Shown here piece by piece: positions 1 to 5,197 of a stretch of DNA of 21,445 nt. Under the pieces are notes generated by a model. The model saw nothing but the letters and a program-made list of their open reading frames with translations. It had not been told where the DNA came from and searched no databases. The translations under genes and the position numbers were made by a program. The stretch's first letter is position 1, and every line of letters starts with the position of its first letter. This DNA is from a virus. Lineage: Duplodnaviria > Heunggongvirae > Uroviricota > Caudoviricetes. The stretch lies in the IMG/VR virus record IMGVR_UViG_2778261069_000007; one strand, given 5' to 3'.

Positions 1-496
1 TCATAAGGCTGAAAGTCAGTCTTTCTTTGTATTTTTTATTTATTGCAGTTACTTCTTTTTGTTTTGGTTTATCACCAAGTTTTTTTATTTCTTCTTTATT
101 TTGATTTCTGATAAATTCATTACTTATTGTTTCTAAATGAGAAAAGAGAGTGTTCAGACTGCATGAACCGTGGTGATACATATAGAGACCAGAAAGATTA
201 GATTTTTTAATTAAGAAAAAGTTGAAATTAGCAAGTTTGTCACTTCCTTTAAGATCTTCAATTTTAAGCTGGAATTTACCATCAACAAATTGCGACTTAC
301 AGTTCTTTTTTTGGTTTCTGAATGTGACAACTAATCCATAATAGAAATCATTCACATCCGAAATGAGAATTTTACGAGTATAGTCTGTGCGACTGTGTTC
401 TCTGTTTGATGCGTTGATAAAAGCATTCATTACGTCAACGGTATTAATGTTTTTGTTATTGTTATTTATTGTAAATCCTATGCTTCTAACTTTCAT
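1..496 (-). CDS. Hypothetical protein, partial (3' end beyond window start); AT-rich accessory (moron) gene
   Basis: Minus-strand frame open from ATG (complement of 494-496) to position 2, then continues off the window; translation begins MKVRSIGFTINNNNKNINTVDVMNAF. First 60 nt are about 27% GC, against roughly 55% in the structural genes. A perfect TATAAT on the minus strand (complement of 575-580) lies about 80 nt upstream. No recognisable family. Confidence 0.45.
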   Translation of the reverse strand, partial: MKVRSIGFTINNNNKNINTVDVMNAFINASNREHSRTDYTRKILISDVNDFYYGLVVTFRNQKKNCKSQFVDGKFQLKIEDLKGSDKLANFNFFLIKKSNLSGLYMYHHGSCSLNTLFSHLETISNEFIRNQNKEEIKKLGDKPKQKEVTAINKKYKERLTFSLM

Positions 497-620
497 GTGT
501 ATTCCAGGACCGACTAAAGATAGCGAGAATGGGGACGCATAGTTTATAAAAATCCTAACGCGTACGCAAAAAGTATTATATCGTGTTAAGAGTGGTTACT
601 TCGCCACACAACTTAAATCC

Positions 621-638
621 GCCGCTGAGCGGTTTTTT
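621..638 (+). terminator. Putative intrinsic terminator (short GC hairpin CCGC-TGA-GCGG followed by T6)
   Basis: Hairpin 622-632 followed by TTTTTT 633-638. No + strand gene lies upstream, so it may end a short leader or small RNA. Confidence 0.35.
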
Positions 639-769
639 GTACCTGTAAACCTGGTGCAGTACAGTAAACACGCTGGTGGTCGTGAATACTGACTTTTTAT
701 CTTGCTGGCTTTTTAGACAAGAGTTATTGGTATGTCATGTTAACCAGAAGGGAAAAAGACATGCTAAAA

Positions 770-964
770 CAGCAAGATATGACAGAAACCGCCGCTGCAG
801 TCCTTCATTTCTTACCTGCTGACAAGTGGGTAACGCCACGCATGATGACGAGAACTACCGGAGTAAGCGAAGCCCGGTGCCAGTTAATACTGACTCAGTT
901 AGTTATGGCGGGTCTGGCGAAGGATAACGGCGGGTACGGGAATAAATTCAGACGCTGCCAGTAA
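770..964 (+). CDS. Small hypothetical protein, possibly a winged-helix DNA-binding regulator
   Basis: ORF 737..964; the internal ATG at 770 follows a purine-rich stretch (GAAGGGAAAAAGAC). The segment VTPRMMTRTTGVSEARCQLILTQLVMAGLAKDNGG looks like a wHTH recognition helix plus wing. Sits directly upstream of the methyltransferase. Confidence 0.4.
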   Translation, partial: QQDMTETAAAVLHFLPADKWVTPRMMTRTTGVSEARCQLILTQLVMAGLAKDNGGYGNKFRRCQ

Positions 965-1055
965 TGGCGGTTTCCTGCTGTGAAAATGGGCGGCTGGTGG
1001 GTGTTGGTAGCACCTGCCAGCCATTCGCTCATGCTTACTGGTCACAAGCGAACCT

Positions 1056-1092
1056 CGGCCCACTGCGGCCCACTGCTTTAGCGCAAAAGCAG
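1056..1092 (+). repeat. Perfect 10-bp tandem repeat (CGGCCCACTG x2, 1056-1075) abutting a 7-bp-stem hairpin (CTGCTTT-AGCGCA-AAAGCAG, 1073-1092)
   Basis: Read directly from the sequence, in the leader about 35 nt upstream of the methyltransferase start. No T-run follows, so it is not a classic terminator. Confidence 0.5.
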
Positions 1093-1124
1093 AGTGAGCC
1101 TACCAGAGTTACGCTTACTGATCC

Positions 1125-2177
1125 ATGAAAAATACTGTAAAAATAAACAGTGTTGATTTAATCAACGCTGATTGCCTGCATTTTATTCAGTCCCTGCCTG
1201 ATGATTCCATTGACCTGATTGTTACCGATCCGCCGTACTTCAAGGTGAAACCCAACGGCTGGGACAATCAGTGGAAAGGGGACGAAGATTACCTGAAGTG
1301 GCTGGACCACTGTCTGGCTCAGTTCTGGCGGGTGCTGAAACCTGCCGGAAGCCTTTACCTGTTCTGTGGACATCGCCTCGCATCTGATATCGAGATCATG
1401 ATGCGTGAACGTTTCAACGTTCTTAACCATATTATCTGGGCGAAGCCGTCCGGACGATGGAACGGGTGTAATAAAGAAAGTCTGCGCGCATATTTTCCCG
1501 CAACAGAACGCGTTCTGTTTGCTGAACATTACCAGGGGCCATATCGCGGCAAAAGTGACGGCTATGCGGCAAAAGAAAGTCAACTCAAACAGCACATAAT
1601 GGCACCGCTGATTTCGTATTTCAGGGATGCTCGTGCCGAACTGGGTATAACGGCAAAACAGATTGCCGAAGCCACTGGTAAGAAAAACATGGTTTCCCAC
1701 TGGTTTGGTGCCAGTCAGTGGCAGTTGCCGAATGAGGCTGACTACCGGAAGTTGCAGGCACTGTTTTCCCGTATAGCGGCAGAGAAGTTTCAGGAACAAC
1801 AACTGGAACAACCACACCACCAGCTGGTGGCATCTTATGATTCACTGAATCGCAAATATTCTGAATTGCTGGATGAGTTTAAAACTCTCCGGCGCTATTT
1901 CTCCGTATCAGTTTCCGTGCCTTATACCGACGTCTGGACGCATAAACCCGTTCAGTTCTACCCGGGTAAACATCCGTGTGAGAAGCCTGCGGATATGCTC
2001 CGGCAAATAATCAATGCCAGTAGTCGACCAGGCGATCTGGTTGCTGATTTCTTTATGGGATCCGGTTCCACAATAAAAGCAGCAATGGCGATGGGGCGTC
2101 GGGCGTTAGGTGTTGAGCTTGAGTCAGATCGGTTTAACCAGACGGTGAAAGAGGTAAGTGAACTGGTGGGGAAATAA
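1125..2177 (+). CDS. DNA methyltransferase, beta-class amino-methyltransferase (N6-adenine or N4-cytosine); apparently orphan
   Basis: 350 aa. Catalytic DPPY motif (IVTDPPYF) near the N-terminus and AdoMet-binding FxGxG motif (DFFMGSGST) near the C-terminus, the motif order of beta-class MTases. No obvious restriction partner. Confidence 0.9.
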   Translation: MKNTVKINSVDLINADCLHFIQSLPDDSIDLIVTDPPYFKVKPNGWDNQWKGDEDYLKWLDHCLAQFWRVLKPAGSLYLFCGHRLASDIEIMMRERFNVLNHIIWAKPSGRWNGCNKESLRAYFPATERVLFAEHYQGPYRGKSDGYAAKESQLKQHIMAPLISYFRDARAELGITAKQIAEATGKKNMVSHWFGASQWQLPNEADYRKLQALFSRIAAEKFQEQQLEQPHHQLVASYDSLNRKYSELLDEFKTLRRYFSVSVSVPYTDVWTHKPVQFYPGKHPCEKPADMLRQIINASSRPGDLVADFFMGSGSTIKAAMAMGRRALGVELESDRFNQTVKEVSELVGK

Positions 2178-2227
2178 TTCTGGTGTCAGAGCTTTTATTC
2201 GCTAATTTTTTCACTGGGAGGCTATTT

Positions 2228-2485
2228 ATGCATTCACACCATCATCAAATATCTATGATCCCACTTACCATGAGTTCACCCATTAAAGGTTTTTCACTGT
2301 ATGTAGAAAGCGAAGACATGGCTGTCGCTATAGCTGAGCTTGAAAATGCCTTATCACAGCTCAAGAACGGAGATAAGGCATTCAAAGAAAGTGGCACGCT
2401 GGTTGGTAACGTCAGAGCAAGTTATTGCTATCCTTACCGTCCTCATTGTGCCGCGAAAGGTCTTTATTGGGATGAAGGGGATTAA
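2228..2485 (+). CDS. Hypothetical small protein, about 85 aa
   Basis: ORF 2183..2485; ATG at 2228 is preceded by GGGAGG at 2215-2220. Its stop codon overlaps the stop of the convergent minus-strand gene (TTAA at 2482-2485). No recognisable family. Confidence 0.4.
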   Translation: MHSHHHQISMIPLTMSSPIKGFSLYVESEDMAVAIAELENALSQLKNGDKAFKESGTLVGNVRASYCYPYRPHCAAKGLYWDEGD

Positions 2486-2994
2486 GCAAGGACTTGTTCA
2501 CCGATAGTTACTGGTAACGGACAAATGTATTCCCAGACTGGATCAGGGTTAAAAGTTTTTCCTGACCAGTAAAGCTCCATTCTGTAGGTGAATTCCAATA
2601 CCGATGTATCATTTCTTAATAATGACATATCTCCGCGATGATAACTATCTGTTTGTATTATGAAAATTTTATCTGATGGTTTTCCGTCTGTAAGTCGAAA
2701 ATGTTTAGCCTCCTCCAGGTTACCCCAGGCGAAGAGTGACGTATAGCGAGAAGGTTTTTGCGGGCAAACTCCTCTTCGGTAAAACTCAAGTCCCCAGTCG
2801 ATGAGTTCGTTTTTATTATAAATTTTTGCCGCATTATTAATGAGGTATCCTTCGCCTTGTGGAGCAAGCCCGCGCGGAAAAAGTTTGTCTACCAGAGATG
2901 ACATTTCAACAGGAGTTATATCGGAGAATTGCTTTGGTGTAACGATATCGCCTGTTGAGTATATTCCTCGGCGATCAACCATAAATAGTTTCAT
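2482..2994 (-). CDS. Hypothetical protein, about 170 aa; accessory (moron) gene of unknown function
   Basis: ORF 2482..3006 on the minus strand. The second ATG (2994) has a GGAG RBS six nt upstream on the minus strand, so it is the likelier start. About 40% GC. Transcribed against the surrounding late genes, so it must have its own promoter in 2995-3211. No known motif recognised. Confidence 0.55.
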   Translation of the reverse strand: MKLFMVDRRGIYSTGDIVTPKQFSDITPVEMSSLVDKLFPRGLAPQGEGYLINNAAKIYNKNELIDWGLEFYRRGVCPQKPSRYTSLFAWGNLEEAKHFRLTDGKPSDKIFIIQTDSYHRGDMSLLRNDTSVLEFTYRMELYWSGKTFNPDPVWEYICPLPVTIGEQVLA

Positions 2995-3023
2995 TAATTT
3001 CTCCATTGATAGTTGTTACTTTT

Positions 3024-3060
3024 GGCGATGTAACGATATCAAACGAGAATTTATATCGCC
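3024..3060. promoter_or_regulatory. Imperfect palindrome GGCGAT...GATATC...ATATCGCC in the divergent intergenic region; candidate operator
   Basis: GGCGAT (3024-3029) is the reverse complement of ATCGCC (3055-3060). The 12-mer TGTAACGATATC occurs at 3029-3040 and again at 2938-2949, inside the 5' end of the minus-strand gene. Confidence 0.3.
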
Positions 3061-3235
3061 AGATGCTTAATCTGACACTTCATCTGACCCTAGTATGTGC
3101 CGGTTTTTTTTATTTAAGGCCGCTGACAGGTCCATTTAGTGCGACGCCTTTCCCCGTTTCCGCTCCTGGAATATTCGGGGATTTTTTATTCCCTCAATTT
3201 GCACCCGCGATATGTGCGAGGTGAGAGATGACGAA

Positions 3236-3571
3236 ATGCCTCATAACCCAAATACCTGGCCGGACTGGCTGGAGTTGTTCCAGAGCTGGTGGCGTGGAGA
3301 TACGCCGCTGGGCGCAGTGATTATGTCGATTGTTATGGCTGGTTTGCGTATTGCCTATTTTGGTGGTGGTGGCGGCTGGAAACGAAAAACACTCGAAATT
3401 TTGCTCTGTGGCGCTCTGACGCTGACATTTGCATCCGCGCTTGAGTATGTCGGATGGCCTAAATCGCTTTCTGTTGCCATTGGTGGTGGGGTGGGGCTGA
3501 TCGGGGTCGATGCAATTCGTGGGGCTGCAATGAGAGTAATCGGTAACAAGTTTGGTGGCTCTAAGGAGTAA
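3236..3571 (+). CDS. S: Holin, lambda S-like (class I, three predicted TM segments)
   Basis: Pattern and length resemble lambda S (hydrophobic segments, glycine-rich turn, charged C-terminus). Directly precedes the endolysin. ORF opens at 3212; start at the in-frame ATG 3236 was chosen, but 3212 is possible (dual start?). Confidence 0.8.
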   Translation: MPHNPNTWPDWLELFQSWWRGDTPLGAVIMSIVMAGLRIAYFGGGGGWKRKTLEILLCGALTLTFASALEYVGWPKSLSVAIGGGVGLIGVDAIRGAAMRVIGNKFGGSKE

Positions 3572-3574
3572 TTT

Positions 3575-4051
3575 ATGCAGGTACTAAATTCCCAGCGTAA
3601 AGCTTTCCTCGATATGGTGGCATGGTCAGAAGGAACGGATAATGGACGGCAACCGACATGTAACCACGGTTATGACGTTATTGTTGGAGGCGAACTATTC
3701 ACTGATTACTCCGATCATCCTCGCAAACTTGTCACACTAAACCCGAAACTTAAATCAACAGCAGCTGGTCGTTATCAGATTCTTTCACGCTGGTGGGATG
3801 CTTACTGTAAACAGCTTGGCCTGAAAGACTTCTCTCCAAAAAACCAGGACGCTGTGGCACTGCAACAGATTAAAGAGCGTGGCGCTTTGCCGATGATTGA
3901 TCGCGGCGATATTCGTCAGGCAATCGACCGTTGCAGCAATATATGGGCTTCATTACCCGGTGCAGGTTACGGTCAGTATGAACATAAAATCGGTGACCTG
4001 ATTGCCCGATTTAAAGAGGCTGGTGGGGTGGTAAATGAAGTTGAGCTATAA
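3575..4051 (+). CDS. R: Endolysin, lambda R-type lytic transglycosylase
   Basis: 158 aa; near-collinear with lambda R as recalled (QRKAFLDM-AWSEGTDNGRQ, NHGYDVIVGGELFTDYSDHPRKLVTLNPKLKST, GALPMIDRGDIRQAIDRCSNIWASLPGAGYGQ). AAGGAG RBS at 3561-3566. Confidence 0.95.
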   Translation: MQVLNSQRKAFLDMVAWSEGTDNGRQPTCNHGYDVIVGGELFTDYSDHPRKLVTLNPKLKSTAAGRYQILSRWWDAYCKQLGLKDFSPKNQDAVALQQIKERGALPMIDRGDIRQAIDRCSNIWASLPGAGYGQYEHKIGDLIARFKEAGGVVNEVEL

Positions 4052-4427
4052 GCTGGTTATCGCTGCATTCCTTTTAACTGTCGTCAGTTCTTTCATCTGG
4101 TCAGCCAACCACTACTACAGCAAATATCAGCACGAAAAGAGACGTGCTGATGAGGCTGTACAAAATGCCAAATCGGCAACTGCCATTACCAATAACGTCC
4201 TGCAATCACTGCAAATCGTCAATACAGTACTGGAGGCTAACCAGCATGCAAAACAGCAGATCGCACTGGAGTCACAGAGAACCCAGGAAGATATCAAAAT
4301 GGCTGTTGCGGATGATGATTGTGCTTCACGTCCTGTGCCTGCTGCCGCTGCTGACCGGTTGCGGAAGTACGCGGACAGTTTACGTGAGCGTTCCGGTGAC
4401 ACCACTGCCACCCAGCCTGACGTCTGA
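4035..4427 (+). CDS. Rz: i-spanin Rz
   Basis: 130 aa; N-terminal TM segment (LVIAAFLLTVVSSFIW), coiled-coil-like middle, charged C-terminus. Start overlaps the end of R, as in lambda. Confidence 0.85.
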   Translation: MKLSYKLVIAAFLLTVVSSFIWSANHYYSKYQHEKRRADEAVQNAKSATAITNNVLQSLQIVNTVLEANQHAKQQIALESQRTQEDIKMAVADDDCASRPVPAAAADRLRKYADSLRERSGDTTATQPDV

Positions 4428-4581
4428 AACTCCTGTACCGCTAATACCAAAACCGCTCACATATGGCGCAAGCCTCGACCTGAGTGTTGATTTGTTGTCA
4501 GCATTAGGGCAGTGCAATCAGGACAAAAAAGAAATCCGAATAATTGAGCAGCTGCGTAATAACGCCGATCAATATAAATAG
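4312..4581 (+). CDS. Rz1: o-spanin Rz1 (outer-membrane lipoprotein), overlapping rather than embedded
   Basis: Starts in the +1 frame inside Rz at ATGATG (4312). Signal peptide with lipobox LLTGC, then a proline-rich mature region (PVTPLPPSLTSETPVPLIPKP). Extends 154 nt past the Rz stop. Confidence 0.75.
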   Translation: MMIVLHVLCLLPLLTGCGSTRTVYVSVPVTPLPPSLTSETPVPLIPKPLTYGASLDLSVDLLSALGQCNQDKKEIRIIEQLRNNADQYK

Positions 4582-4651
4582 TATTAACAATACTGTATTG
4601 ATTTTATTTTTTCGTTAGACTTTTCCATGAGTTATGGATGAGGTTAACGAT

Positions 4652-4996
4652 ATGAATATAAAAAATTCAATTTTGTTAGTGATATCACTATTAGTGAGTG
4701 GTTGTGACAACGCACCTAAATTTGATGGTACCAGCCAGGAATCGCTCCGATATTCAGCAGAAAAAGTCTTTGAGTCATTATCTGAAGAGAAGAAGGCCGA
4801 ATTGAAAACGGCGATTGTCGATACTTTGGGGTACTACGATACTCAGGCAGAGTTAAGCAACGATAAAAGTTACTCTTCGAAGAAAATGAGTCTGGTAGTG
4901 TTCAATGGAAAAACGGCTGATCAGGTTATTTCCGAAGCTGCTACTTATCGGGAGAAAAAAGAAAAACTTATTCAACAATATCTGCACAAAAAGTGA
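4652..4996 (+). CDS. Hypothetical lipoprotein (moron) downstream of the lysis cassette
   Basis: ORF 4634..4996; ATG at 4652 is preceded by GAGGT. Signal peptide with lipobox LVSGC (MNIKNSILLVISLLVSGCDNAP). About 40% GC. Followed by a strong terminator. Occupies the position that bor holds in lambda but is not Bor-like in sequence. Confidence 0.6.
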   Translation: MNIKNSILLVISLLVSGCDNAPKFDGTSQESLRYSAEKVFESLSEEKKAELKTAIVDTLGYYDTQAELSNDKSYSSKKMSLVVFNGKTADQVISEAATYREKKEKLIQQYLHKK

Positions 4997-5001
4997 TAAA
5001 T

Positions 5002-5025
5002 GGCCGCAATGAGCGGCCTTTTACT
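5002..5025 (+). terminator. Rho-independent terminator (GGCCGC-AATGA-GCGGCC + TTTT)
   Basis: Perfect 6-bp GC stem 5002-5018 followed by a T-run, immediately after the lipoprotein stop. Confidence 0.6.
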
Positions 5026-5197
5026 TGTTATTTTTAGCGGGTCCTCCTGGCGATTTGAAACACCGGGGGGCTGTGGACACGCGGAAAACGGCTGGTTTTT
5101 TGCATTTTATCGGCATCATCATCTTTTATCTAACCTGTTGATATTTCAGTTGTGAAATTATTCACGATGTCGATTCGCTTAAATATTGTTCACCATC

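What the first reader, a model, noticed from the sequence alone, without database searches (positions are those of the whole stretch)
621..1124. Structured leader upstream of the methyltransferase: orphan terminator, small wHTH ORF, tandem repeat and hairpin
A + strand hairpin with T6 (621-638) has no + strand gene upstream, so it would terminate a short transcript starting around 560-600. In lambdoid phages a short terminated leader ahead of the late operon is the signature of antitermination control, but no Q-like gene is visible here. Downstream lie a 65-75 aa wHTH-like ORF (770-964), a perfect tandem 10-mer (CGGCCCACTG x2, 1056-1075) and a 7-bp-stem hairpin (1073-1092) just before the methyltransferase start. 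Together this suggests a dedicated regulator or RNA-structure control of the methyltransferase and late operon. An alternative reading, that the small ORF acts like a controller protein of an R-M-like unit, is speculative because such proteins are usually Xre-type and precede a restriction gene.
Basis: partly seen in the sequence, partly recalled or inferred. Interest (0 to 1): 0.5.

Follow-up and report, generated by a model that had tools for sequence, protein, structure and literature searches.

The report
Phage late-operon leader with methylase RNA
This stretch is the start of a lambda-like prophage's late operon: a short terminated leader read through only with the phage Q protein, then a small DNA-binding gene and a conserved, unannotated folded RNA ahead of a probably toxic DNA methylase; the 10-base repeat is a one-off duplication.

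Summary
All four features sit at the stated coordinates, but they are not one device. (1) The hairpin+T6 (619-638) is weak alone (-6.3 kcal/mol, z -1.3). Comparison shows it is the terminator of a ~90-bp late-promoter leader (window ~545-638). That unit recurs downstream of small Q21-family antiterminators, and its upstream repeat co-varies with Q subtype. The Q gene lies about 1.4 kb left of the window in the closest relatives, behind a variable minus-strand cassette. (2) The small ORF is real: 761-964, 67 aa, winged helix, pLDDT 88. It precedes this methylase from Escherichia to Xenorhabdus, yet at least 21 loci lack it. (3) The tandem 10-mer is a private 10-bp duplication, absent from 1185 places in 1057 E. 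coli genomes and 81 viral-contig copies. It frameshifts a non-conserved ORF onto the methylase start. (4) The 1073-1092 hairpin has only 5 conserved, invariant inner pairs. It is one helix of a ~175-nt leader (954-1124) fixed before the methylase ATG, which has no GGAGG-type ribosome site. On 51 sequences 92% of cells pair (31-49% in slid controls), and 12 pairs change on both sides. Rfam has no match. Best reading: terminators plus a folded leader silence an M.EcoGII-like methylase until Q acts.

The parts
1..497 (-). 5' part of a minus-strand accessory gene (phrog_2802, function unknown). In relatives it is the promoter-proximal gene of a two-gene cassette lying between Q and the late leader. 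It marks where Q would lie, off the window.
   Evidence: in 569R4 and strain A2 the order is Q, two minus-strand genes, then this leader.
545..638 (+). Late-promoter (pR'-like) leader plus terminator unit. It recurs alone ahead of holin genes in prophages that lack the methylase cassette.
   Evidence: hits H61-H65 cover only window 545-637. One search finds the same unit in 17 loci, including K-12 DLP12.
555..570 (+). CTAACGCGTACGCAAA: a weak -35-like CTAACG followed by the direct repeat ACGC (558-561 and 564-567). Candidate Q-binding element.
   Evidence: ACGCGTACGC occurs with 569R4/FEA3-type Q, CGCGGTCCGC with cdtI/98219/EC21Z-type Q, and TACGTACG with quuD-type Q. In phage 21 the QBE is a direct repeat between -35 and -10 (PMC6606751).
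574..584 (+). -10 region with two overlapping registers. TATTAT 574-579 gives lambda-like spacing to the pause element. TATCGT 579-584 is the only register with T-12, A-11 and T-7 invariant in all 17 leader variants. The inferred start is about 586-591.
   Evidence: My reading of the 17 leader sequences printed and the alignment. The consensus scan does not call a promoter here.
584..604 (+). Near-invariant TGTTAAGAGTGGTTACTTCGC. It holds a -10-like AAGAGT (588-593) followed by GGTTACTTCGC. Candidate sigma-dependent pause element.
   Evidence: Lambda pR' reads AACGAT-GGGTTAATTCGC at the same place. The block is (nearly) invariant across Q subtypes.
619..638 (+). Intrinsic terminator (tR'-like): stem CCGC 619-622 / GCGG 629-632, then T6 633-638. 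The window's copy is a weakened version.
   Evidence: In one search, 60 of 65 related loci have a GC hairpin plus T-run 84-135 nt (one at 220 nt) upstream of the small ORF, with differing stem sequences. SfV and Ayreon records annotate it as a terminator.
701..737 (+). Conserved bipartite box: CTTGCTG (701-707), 12 variable nt, then AGAGTTATTGGTATGTCA (720-737). It is present only where the small ORF is present. Function unexplained; the spacing is promoter-like.
   Evidence: (no consensus RNA fold).
761..964 (+). Small winged-helix protein gene, 67 aa (phrog_331). The ribosome site GAAGGG is at 747-752. An alternative upstream ATG lies at 737.
   Evidence: phrog_331, E 6.5e-27. Searches show orthologues in 57 of 77 loci with in-frame indels. 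One search gives AF2 pLDDT 87.9 with an H-b-H-H-b-b topology.
954..971 (+). Hairpin P0: GCTGCCA-GTAA-TGGCGGT. Its loop holds the small ORF's stop codon and a T-rich tract follows. It is terminator-like in many relatives and marks the 5' edge of the methylase leader.
   Evidence: -11.9 kcal/mol, z -3.2. CCTCC/GGAGG, CTGCC/GGCAG and similar variants. In L019 and L027 the tR' hairpin occupies this position.
988..1071 (+). Leader junction. P1 is GGGC 988-991 with GCCC (copies at 1058-1061 and 1068-1071). H1 is 992-1003 with 1011-1022. H2 is 1024-1029 with 1047-1052.
   Evidence: 6-7 H1 pairs and 3 H2 pairs change on both sides. One H2 pair reads C-G 23, A-U 11, U-A 8. L032 has GAGC/GCTC in P1.
1056..1075 (+). 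Private 10-bp tandem duplication (CGGCCCACTG x2) inside the leader. It frameshifts the non-conserved ORF that starts at 964, so the ORF ends in an ATGA overlap with the methylase start (964-1128, 54 aa).
   Evidence: best identity 92.4%, equal to the 10-nt gap, in 1185 places; 0 of 81. The only exact hit in IMG/VR is unrelated DNA.
1073..1092 (+). Only the inner GCTTT/AAAGC pairs are conserved, and the centre stays palindromic (GCGC or GTGCAC).
   Evidence: z -0.46.
1093..1124 (+). H4 (AGTGAGC 1093-1099 with GCTTACT 1112-1118), then invariant GATC (1120-1123) just before the ATG. No GGAGG-type ribosome site is present.
   Evidence: two pairs with double changes. In one search A, T and C of GATC are invariant and the G is nearly so.
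1125..2177 (+). Beta-class N6/N4 DNA methyltransferase, 350 aa, with DPPY near the N-terminus and FxGxG near the C-terminus. M.EcoGII-like.
   Evidence: (PF01555, E 9e-42), and PMC5778455.

Best explanation
Window 545-2177 is the 5' end of a lambdoid late operon, not a single regulatory device.

A weak constitutive late promoter (-10 at 574-584) starts an RNA of about 50 nt. That RNA carries a sigma-dependent-pause-like element (AAGAGT-GGTTACTTCGC, 588-604) and ends at the intrinsic terminator 619-638. In the lysogen transcription stops there. After induction, a small Q21-family antiterminator loads at the upstream repeat (555-570) and lets RNA polymerase read through. Its gene lies about 1.4 kb left of the window in the closest relatives, behind a two-gene minus-strand cassette.

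The first cargo is a widespread two-part cassette. Unit A is a 67-aa winged-helix gene (761-964) with its own conserved upstream box (701-737) and its own terminator-like hairpin (954-971). Unit B is a ~150-nt multi-helix leader RNA (about 975-1124) fused at fixed distance to an M.EcoGII-like adenine methyltransferase whose start has no GGAGG-type ribosome site.

Inferred mechanism: one or two terminators, plus a folded leader that holds the start region in helix H4, keep a potentially toxic methylase silent until Q-modified polymerase transcribes it late. It can then methylate progeny DNA.

The 10-mer repeat is a recent private duplication inside this leader with no conserved role.

Shown: the anatomy, the conservation, the covariation and the synteny. 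Inferred: the transcription start, the Q loading site, the pause, and what the leader does.
For: Context. Q, a minus-strand cassette, this leader, the small ORF, the methylase and then lysis genes appear in that order in 569R4, cdtI, strain A2, EC21Z and Stx2a_1447. The 569R4 Q matches PF06530 at E 1.6e-45.

Leader unit. Window 545-637 recurs alone ahead of holin in TUM9868 and FEA3, and 174 nt upstream of essD in K-12 DLP12. Its upstream repeat co-varies with Q subtype in 17 loci, while TGTTAAGAGTGG stays (nearly) invariant. The layout resembles lambda pR' and the direct-repeat QBE of phage 21 (PMC6606751).

Terminator. A GC hairpin plus T-run is present in 60 of 65 loci, with differing stem sequences. 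A Q homologue of at least four types lies upstream in most loci.

Folded leader. On 51 sequences 91.8% of cells are paired, against 31-49% in slid controls. Twelve pairs change on both sides, against 4-8 in slid controls. For four of five measures 0 of 500 shuffles reach the observed value; for further pair types it is 5 of 500. A covariance model finds the leader abutting the methylase ATG in 49 loci. The motif lies 129-131 nt from the ATG in 75 of 81 viral-contig copies.

Precedent for silence and toxicity. M.EcoGII is not expressed in the lysogen and is harmful when constitutive (PMC5778455). In Stx phages pR' is constitutive and terminated at tR' (PMC7547250).
Against: The window's own terminator is weak: a 4-5 bp stem, -6.3 kcal/mol, z -1.3.

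No convincing -35 exists. The consensus scan calls no promoter at 545-590, and two -10 registers compete.

If the invariant TAnnnT register (579-584) is the real -10, then AAGAGT overlaps the start site and cannot be the pause element.

Q is not in the window, so its presence rests on relatives.

The function of the leader RNA is untested. The single-sequence minimum-energy fold prefers an alternative long-range pairing.

Identity with M.EcoGII itself was not checked by direct alignment.
Confidence: 0.7

Rival explanations
1. The small winged-helix protein is a dedicated regulator of the methylase. It would bind the 1073-1092 palindrome (DNA or RNA) or the 701-737 box and set methylase expression, like a controller protein or like Com for mom.
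For: The two genes are tightly linked: 57 of 77 species loci and 64 of 69 viral contigs with enough upstream DNA. The fold is a winged helix. A 20-bp near-palindrome keeps its palindromic centre (GCGC or GTGCAC) across genera. The upstream box is found only together with the gene.
Against: The leader, its palindrome and the methylase are intact in 16 + 5 loci that lack the gene. There is no restriction gene, no Xre-type HTH and no overlap with the methylase start. The gene is bracketed by its own terminator-like hairpins, so it looks like an independent unit.
Confidence: 0.2
2. The hairpin at 619-638 is not tR'. It is only a mosaic junction or the terminator of whatever lies upstream. The true late promoter would sit right after Q, with late transcription running antisense through the minus-strand cassette.
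For: Homology breakpoints of many phages fall exactly at the hairpin, at window 616-629. In Ayreon and Stx2c phages it follows a + strand lipoprotein gene, and another terminator lies nearer Q. The window's promoter elements are weak.
Against: In 569R4 only 12 bp separate the Q stop from the cassette. The sequence just upstream of the hairpin co-varies with Q subtype wherever the small Q occurs. It also resembles lambda's pause module. In strain 100416 the same leader follows Q directly, within 181 bp.
Confidence: 0.12
3. The high conservation of 965-1124 reflects a DNA-level role, such as a recombination linker between modules or a protein-binding site, or recent horizontal spread. It would not reflect an RNA structure.
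For: The spacer is more conserved than the flanking coding DNA. H3 is a palindrome with no covariation. Lambdoid mosaicism is extensive here.
Against: Compensatory changes keep P1, H1, H2 and H4 paired across Escherichia, Proteus, Morganella and Rosenbergiella. Xenorhabdus and Photorhabdus keep H1 with entirely different sequences. The distance to the ATG is fixed.
Confidence: 0.1

Closest known systems
Lambdoid Q-dependent late regulatory cassette (Q gene, pR', sigma-dependent pause element, tR'), as in lambda, 21 and 82. The short terminated pR' RNA is also known as an sRNA (StxS).
   Same: A Q-family gene lies upstream in relatives. A short leader ends in an intrinsic terminator just ahead of the late genes. 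A -10-like AAnnnT followed by GGTTAnTTCGC matches lambda. A direct-repeat motif upstream tracks the Q subtype, as a QBE should.
   Different: This Q is a short (113-122 aa) divergent PF06530 member, with E 9e-5 to Q21. It is always separated from its leader by 0.9-2.8 kb of variable DNA, minus-strand genes where annotated. The leader is only about 50 nt, against 194 nt in lambda (own knowledge) and 258 nt in Stx phages. No clear -35 is present, and the repeat period is 4-7 bp rather than the two 6-bp TGAGCA subsites of phage 21.
M.EcoGII / M.EcoGI, prophage-encoded non-specific adenine methyltransferases (PMC5778455)
   Same: It is a beta-class enzyme with an N-terminal DPPY, a central target-recognition region and a C-terminal FxGxG. 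It has 350 aa against 349. It is encoded in a lambdoid prophage and is expected to be silent in the lysogen.
   Different: Direct sequence identity to M.EcoGII was not measured here, and activity is unknown. That paper describes no leader, terminator or partner gene.
Controller (C) protein of restriction-modification systems, and Com-mom of phage Mu
   Same: A small nucleic-acid-binding protein gene lies immediately upstream of a DNA-modification gene, with a palindrome or hairpin in between.
   Different: There is no restriction gene. The protein is a winged helix, not an Xre-type HTH and not a zinc finger. There is no gene overlap. The methylase and its leader exist without the protein.
Zalpha and TrmB/MarR/IscR-type winged-helix domains
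   Same: The size and topology match. Foldseek TM is 0.82-0.84 to ADAR1 Zalpha and 0.6-0.78 to TrmBL2, IscR, IclR and MarR. Orthologues weakly hit Pfam TrmB and DprA_WH.
   Different: E-values are only about 2e-3. The window's own copy hits no Pfam or NCBIfam model. By eye, helix 3 and the wing lack the Asn/Tyr and Trp residues that I recall as the Z-DNA contacts of ADAR1 Zalpha.
Structured 5' leaders and cis-regulatory RNAs (riboswitch- or attenuator-type) in Rfam
   Same: It is a multi-helix element with covariation, at a fixed distance from a start codon without a GGAGG-type ribosome site. Alternative pairings of the AAGCGAA segment are possible.
   Different: None of the 4227 Rfam 15 families matches, even at E <= 1. 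No ligand, protein partner or expression platform has been identified.

Membership tests
Lambdoid Q-dependent late cassette (pR'-tR') | A Q antiterminator gene lies upstream of the leader. | tested here: inconclusive
   Q is not in the window. It is present in every close relative examined (569R4, A2, cdtI, EC21Z, Stx2a_1447), 1.4-1.9 kb upstream of the corresponding position, and in most of the 80 species loci.
Lambdoid Q-dependent late cassette (pR'-tR') | A sigma-70 promoter with a Q-binding element between -35 and -10. | tested here: inconclusive
   A -10 of the form TAnnnT is invariant in all 17 leader variants, and the repeat motif co-varies with Q subtype. The -35 is poor, and the consensus scan finds no promoter.
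Lambdoid Q-dependent late cassette (pR'-tR') | A -10-like pause element lies in the initial transcribed region. | tested here: inconclusive
   AAGAGT-GGTTACTTCGC compares with lambda AACGAT-GGGTTAATTCGC. Its position relative to the start depends on which -10 register is real.
Lambdoid Q-dependent late cassette (pR'-tR') | An intrinsic terminator lies between the promoter and the late genes. | tested here: met
   The hairpin plus T6 is at 619-638. It is conserved as a structure, with different stem sequences, in 60 of 65 loci.
Lambdoid Q-dependent late cassette (pR'-tR') | A short terminated RNA is made in the lysogen, and Q gives read-through. | not testable with these tools
   This needs RNA mapping or in vitro transcription.
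Q21 family (Pfam PF06530) for the cognate Q | A profile match across the domain. | tested here: met
   The 569R4 Q matches PF06530 at E 1.6e-45 over profile positions 1-113 of 118. It matches the Q21 PDB chains at E 8.8e-5. This was tested on a relative, not on the window.
R-M controller (C) protein unit | An Xre-type HTH C protein with a restriction endonuclease gene in the unit. | tested here: not met
   The protein is a winged helix with no HTH_3 hit. The genes after the methylase are an unknown ORF and a holin, and in relatives the holin follows directly.
Mu Com-mom type translational activation | A zinc-finger RNA-binding activator whose gene overlaps the target, with a hairpin occluding the target start. 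| tested here: not met
   The fold is not a zinc finger. A spacer of about 150 nt replaces the overlap. The target occurs without the protein.
Winged-helix DNA-binding domain (TrmB/MarR-like clan) | An H1-b-H2-H3-b-b topology and profile matches. | tested here: met
   The topology is met at pLDDT 87.9 and the best fold matches are winged helices. Profile matches are only sub-threshold, and only in orthologues: TrmB in 13 of 28 and DprA_WH in 12 of 28.
Zalpha (Z-DNA/Z-RNA binding) domain | The conserved Asn/Tyr of helix 3 and the Trp of the wing that contact Z-form backbone (recalled from ADAR1; own knowledge). | tested here: inconclusive
   Zalpha is the best fold match, with TM 0.82-0.84 at E 1.7e-3. 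No structure-based residue mapping was done. By eye, helix 3 (RCQLILTQLVMAGL) and the wing lack these residues.
Beta-class N6/N4 DNA methyltransferase (M.EcoGII-like) | PF01555 with an N-terminal DPPY and a C-terminal FxGxG. | tested here: met
   PF01555 matches at E 9.3e-42. DPPY is at residues 35-38 and FFMGSGS lies near the C-terminus. This is the order described for M.EcoGII.
Beta-class N6/N4 DNA methyltransferase (M.EcoGII-like) | Non-specific adenine methylation and close identity to M.EcoGII. | not tested
Any Rfam 15 RNA family | A covariance-model match. | tested here: not met
   There were 0 matches at E <= 1 in window 1-3600 and 0 at gathering score in the whole window.

The most novel reading that the evidence does not exclude
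The ~175-nt element in front of M.EcoGII-type methylases (window 954-1124) is a new class of cis-regulatory RNA that acts as a genuine switch. The AAGCGAA segment can pair either with UUCGCU (H2) or with CGCUU next to the start codon. A signal such as SAM/SAH, a late phage protein or the methylase itself would decide between the two and so gate translation of a non-specific adenine methylase from its start codon, which has no GGAGG-type ribosome site. The neighbouring winged-helix gene would be an independently expressed 'moron' with its own promoter-like box and terminator.
Probability: 0.2. Interest if true: 0.75.

Novelty: new variant of a known kind. Interest (0 to 1): 0.5.

Why it matters
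The promoter and terminator part is textbook lambdoid biology and is ordinary. Two things are worth keeping.

First, a conserved, covarying leader RNA sits at a fixed distance in front of a very common prophage methylase family, and Rfam has no match for it. The cassette is found in about 1500 of 5426 complete E. coli genomes and across Enterobacterales. This is the family of M.EcoGII, an enzyme widely used for chromatin footprinting. M.EcoGII's silence in the lysogen and its toxicity when expressed have been reported, but the paper read here describes no control element. One or two terminators followed by a folded leader and a start without a GGAGG-type ribosome site give a concrete, testable account of that silence.

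Second, in some Stx2a and Stx2e phages this whole cassette lies between pR' and the stx2 genes. Its terminators and leader are therefore part of the Shiga-toxin transcript.

The analysis also shows that the small Q21-family antiterminators are always separated from their own leader by a variable insert, which looks like a defence or moron hotspot.

Tried and rejected
1. The 35/54-aa ORF at 964 as a real gene. Rejected: in EC21Z it stops after 4 codons, indels that are not multiples of 3 occur among relatives, and it is absent where the winged-helix gene is absent. The window's 54-aa form exists only because of the duplication.

2. The 10-mer as a protein-binding repeat. Rejected because it is absent from all relatives. 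The single exact IMG/VR hit (L094) is unrelated DNA.

3. The RNAalifold and single-sequence alternative fold (AUGGG:CUCAU closure plus long-range GGUCA:UGAUC and AAGCG:CGCUU). Considered. By my column-by-column reading of alignment A4, the variable H2 position (C-G, A-U, U-A) fits H2 but gives U-C mismatches in the long-range pairing for the AAGCUAA group. I kept it only as a possible alternative state.

4. A consensus RNA structure for the 5' UTR of the small ORF (696-784). None was found.

5. The box at 701-737 as a standard sigma-70 promoter. The spacing fits, but the -10 lacks T at -7 and the scan does not call it. By eye it does not fit sigma-32, sigma-E or sigma-54 consensus sequences recalled from memory. 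Left unexplained.

6. Phage 21 pR' as a direct sequence reference. The Stx2c phage I fetched turned out to carry an 82-type Q (250 aa) and no TGAGCA repeat, so this gave nothing.

7. A direct link to M.EcoGII through the paper's supplement. No supplementary file is held.

8. tRNA and Rfam scans of the whole window found nothing.

9. PADLOC on five variant cassettes. Only the FEA3 variant matches a candidate system, PDC-M53. The window's type does not.
Full report
OBSERVATION

- Hairpin + T-run: the scan reports GCCGC-TGA-GCGGT followed by TTTTTT at 621-638.
- Small ORF: a 75-aa ORF at 737-964.
- Tandem repeat: a perfect CGGCCCACTG x2 at 1056-1075.
- Hairpin: an inverted repeat at 1073-1092.

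Taken alone, the two hairpins are unremarkable. The terminator hairpin folds at -6.3 kcal/mol (z -1.33; 24 of 200 shuffles fold as well). The 1073-1092 hairpin folds at -7.7 kcal/mol (z -0.46; 62 of 200). Their meaning comes only from comparison with relatives.

WHERE THE WINDOW SITS

The window is the late region of a lambdoid prophage of E. coli. From left to right it holds:

- a minus-strand gene running off the left end (1-497);
- the stretch in question;
- a beta-class DNA methyltransferase (1125-2177; PF01555, E 9e-42);
- about 1 kb of extra DNA;
- a lambda-type holin at 3212, followed by long ORFs not examined further.

Window 400-1300 is 97-98% identical to phage vB_EcoS-569R4, mEp460_4F5 and E. 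coli strain A2. Some part of it is found in 1504 of 5426 complete E. coli genomes.

In 569R4 and A2 the gene order is DUF968, then Q (113 aa), then two minus-strand genes, then this leader, a 204-bp ORF, the methylase and the lysis genes. That Q is a full-length PF06530 protein (E 1.6e-45), the family of phage 21 Q. The "missing" Q is therefore about 1.4 kb to the left of window position 1 in the closest relatives.

THE ORPHAN TERMINATOR IS A LATE-OPERON (tR'-LIKE) TERMINATOR

Five lines of evidence support this.

First, homology with different phages begins at different points: window 545, 567, 576, 583 or exactly at the hairpin (616-629). Some prophages match only window 545-637. In those (TUM9868, FEA3) this ~90-bp unit sits between a minus-strand cassette that follows a small Q and the holin gene, with no methylase. 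K-12 DLP12 has the same unit after nmpC, 174 nt upstream of essD.

Second, across 17 leaders the block TGTTAAGAGTGG is (nearly) invariant, while the motif just upstream tracks the Q subtype:
- CTAACGCGTACGCAAAA occurs with 569R4/FEA3-type Q;
- (T/C)TA(C/A/T)CGCGGTCCGCA occurs with cdtI/98219/EC21Z-type Q;
- TTTACGTACGTAAAA occurs with quuD-type Q.

A direct repeat between -35 and -10 is what the QBE of phage 21 looks like (PMC6606751).

Third, AAGAGT-GGTTACTTCGC (588-604) mirrors lambda's pause module AACGAT-GGGTTAATTCGC, which lies just after the lambda pR' -10.

Fourth, in 60 of 65 related loci from many genera a GC-rich hairpin plus T-run lies 84-135 nt (one at 220 nt) upstream of the small ORF. 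The stems differ in sequence: CCTCGC/GCGGGG, CCCAGC/GCTGGG, CCTTGC/GCAAGG and others. A Q homologue of one of at least four types lies upstream, either directly (184-411 nt) or behind an insert.

Fifth, the SfV and Ayreon records already annotate this hairpin as a terminator.

The window's copy is a degraded version. It has a 4-5 bp stem, whereas Ayreon has CCCGC/GCGGG and strain 100416 has CCTCGC-TTCG-GCGGGG followed by T8.

Three things remain unsettled.
- There is no convincing -35, and the consensus scan calls no promoter here.
- Two -10 registers compete. TATTAT (574-579) gives lambda-like spacing to AAGAGT. TATCGT (579-584) is the only register whose T-12, A-11 and T-7 are invariant in all 17 variants, but it would put AAGAGT across the start site.
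- The start is therefore about 586-591 and the leader RNA about 47-53 nt.

THE SMALL ORF

The conserved start is ATG 761, behind GAAGGG at 747-752. The product is 67 aa and belongs to phrog_331 (E 6.5e-27).

Orthologues (consensus MLKQQDMTETA...RCQLILTQLVMAGL...) precede the methylase in 57 of 77 species-representative loci, from Escherichia, Salmonella, Klebsiella and Mixta to Proteus, Morganella, Xenorhabdus and Photorhabdus. Their in-frame indels and divergent middle part show that this is a translated gene.

AlphaFold gives pLDDT 87.9 with an H-b-H-H-b-b winged helix. The best PDB fold matches are Zalpha (TM 0.82-0.84), TrmBL2, IscR, IclR and MarR, at weak E-values of about 2e-3. Orthologues, but not the window's copy, touch Pfam TrmB and DprA_WH. 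RefSeq names some of them "TrmB family".

Upstream lies a bipartite box conserved in every locus that has the gene: CTTGCTG, 12-13 variable nt, then AGAGTTAYNTGTRTGTCA (window 701-737). It has no consensus RNA fold.

Immediately after the stop codon lies hairpin P0 (954-971; -11.9 kcal/mol, z -3.2). In many relatives P0 is followed by T5-T8.

The gene therefore looks like a self-contained unit nested between two terminators. Its function is unknown.

THE TANDEM 10-MER

569R4, cdtI, Ayreon, EC21Z, Z1323 and 100416 all carry one copy.

A 131-nt query across the repeat finds 1185 places in 1057 E. coli genomes. The best identity is 92.4%, which is exactly the 10-nt gap.

None of 81 viral-contig copies has the duplication. 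The only exact 20-mer hit in IMG/VR is unrelated DNA.

The duplication is a private slippage event. It shifts the frame of a non-conserved ORF that starts at the TAATG overlap (964). In relatives that ORF has 35 codons and ends in the loop of the 1073-1092 hairpin. In the window it has 54 codons and ends in an ATGA overlap with the methylase start. Whether this couples translation to the methylase is speculation. The covariance model still scores the window's leader at 153 bits, against 160-177 bits for most close (Enterobacteriaceae) relatives.

THE HAIRPIN IS ONE HELIX OF A LARGER CONSERVED LEADER

The spacer from the small ORF's stop to the methylase ATG is 146-154 nt in Enterobacteriaceae, 138-142 nt in Proteus and Morganella, and 79-102 nt in Xenorhabdus and Photorhabdus. 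It is more conserved than the coding DNA on either side.

A hand-built model comprises:
- P1: GGGC/GCCC;
- H1: 992-1003 with 1011-1022;
- H2: 1024-1029 with 1047-1052;
- H4: 1093-1099 with 1112-1118.

On 36 sequences, 85% of cells pair against 30-47% in slid controls, and 14 pairs change on both sides against 3-8. On 51 sequences, 91.8% pair against 31-49%, and 12 pairs against 4-8; 0 of 500 shuffles reach the observed value for four of five measures, and 5 of 500 for further pair types.

Examples of covariation:
- H1 is GACTGTAAAAGTG/CACCTTTACAGTC in Proteus.
- One H2 pair reads C-G 23, A-U 11 and U-A 8.
- P1 is GAGC/GCTC in Mixta.

H3 contributes nothing to this signal. Only its inner GCTTT/AAAGC pairs are conserved, and they never vary. 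Its centre stays palindromic (GCGC or GTGCAC), so a DNA-level role cannot be excluded.

The start region has no GGAGG. GATC just before the ATG is conserved (A, T and C invariant, G nearly so) in all 51 leaders. UGAUCC is complementary to the 16S rRNA 3' end (own knowledge).

A covariance model built from the alignment finds the element abutting the methylase ATG in 49 loci. Sixteen of these lack the small ORF. In L019 and L027 the order is Q, leader, terminator, this element, then the methylase, with the tR' hairpin occupying the P0 position. In viral contigs the core motif is followed by an intact DPPY methylase 129-131 nt downstream in 75 of 81 cases; the rest are truncated or pseudogenes.

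Rfam 15 has no match.

HOW IT MOST LIKELY WORKS

Shown: a Q-linked leader and terminator, a second terminator-like hairpin, and a structured leader without a GGAGG-type ribosome site that is welded to the methylase.

Inferred: in the lysogen the late promoter fires but transcription ends at 619-638, as pR' transcription ends at tR' in Stx phages (PMC7547250). After induction, Q-modified polymerase ignores 619-638 and P0 and transcribes the methylase. The folded leader keeps its translation low or conditional.

This fits what is reported for M.EcoGII. It is a 349-aa beta-class prophage enzyme that is silent in the lysogen and harmful when expressed constitutively (PMC5778455). Direct identity between M.EcoGII and the window's enzyme was not measured.

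I put the composite picture at about 0.7. The specific idea that the leader represses translation is at about 0.4. The remainder is split among RNA stability or processing, attenuation (H1 is followed by UUUU in Xenorhabdus) and a true switch.

COMPARISON AND NOVELTY

The promoter and terminator part is a new variant of the known Q cassette. It has a short divergent Q21-family protein, a ~50-nt leader, and an obligatory variable insert between Q and its own promoter.

The small protein is an uncharacterised winged helix. It is not a controller protein and not Com-like.

The leader RNA is the one element I could not place in any described family. It is common, covarying and attached to a biotechnologically important enzyme family.

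The tandem repeat is noise.

Overall this is a moderately interesting finding whose original emphasis was partly misplaced.

Noticed in passing
window 1-497 (-); L002:2636-4031, L003:2517-3905, L004:61-2453, L005:836-2324, L006:902-2441, L092:476-2039: Prophages with the small (113-122 aa) PF06530 Q always carry variable extra DNA between the Q stop and the late leader; where annotated it is usually a two-gene minus-strand cassette. One variant (strain FEA3) matches the PADLOC candidate defence system PDC-M53A/B. Another has an NA37/NdpA-like protein. K-12 DLP12 has nmpC at this position. It looks like a defence or moron hotspot. The window's own type (phrog_2802 plus a 182-aa partner) matches nothing known.
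   Followed up: partly
window 701-737: A bipartite box, CTTGCTG - 12 nt - AGAGTTATTGGTATGTCA, is conserved from Escherichia to Xenorhabdus between the terminator and the small ORF. It is present only where that ORF is present. It has no consensus RNA fold. Its spacing is promoter-like but the -10 lacks T at -7. Unexplained.
   Followed up: partly
window 2178-3211: About 1 kb lies between the methylase stop and the holin. It holds ORF 2183-2485 (+, no family) and ORF 2482-3006 (-, phrog_5663, unknown), followed by a terminator-like site at 3164-3180. This stretch is absent from 569R4, Ayreon and strain A2, where the holin follows the methylase after about 67 nt.
   Followed up: no
L092 (Stx2a_1447) 2284-5134; L093 (phiP27) 2290-5140: In some Stx2a and Stx2e phages the same cassette (terminator, winged-helix gene, leader, methylase) lies directly upstream of the tRNA genes and stx2AB. 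It is therefore part of the Shiga-toxin late transcript.
   Followed up: no
L053 (Erwinia tracheiphila) 3660-4004: Here the small ORF reads through the whole leader to an ATGA overlap with the methylase start. This parallels the ORF created in the window by the 10-bp duplication. It could be an independent frame fusion or gene decay.
   Followed up: no
window 1120-1127 and 1145-1173: GATC just before the methylase ATG is conserved in all 51 leaders (A, T and C invariant, G nearly so). UGAUCC is complementary to the 16S rRNA 3' end (own knowledge), and GATC is also a Dam site. A 14-nt inverted repeat (86% complementary) lies within the first 50 nt of the methylase coding sequence.
   Followed up: no
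L010 (E. coli K-12 DLP12) about 4180-4290: K-12's cryptic prophage DLP12 carries the same TGTTAAGAGTGGTTACTTCG...CCCGCCGTCGAGCGGG-T5 leader and terminator 174 nt upstream of essD. It has a quuD-specific upstream motif, TTTACGTACGTAAAA. This offers a tractable model for testing the promoter, QBE and pause assignments.
   Followed up: partly
sp_short set: L056-L088 (Xenorhabdus/Photorhabdus), 79-102 nt before the methylase ATG: These genera have a shortened leader. It keeps H1, with unrelated stem sequences and often followed by TTTT (terminator-like), and a CCAGAG-loop hairpin. It lacks H2, P1 and the palindrome.
   Followed up: partly
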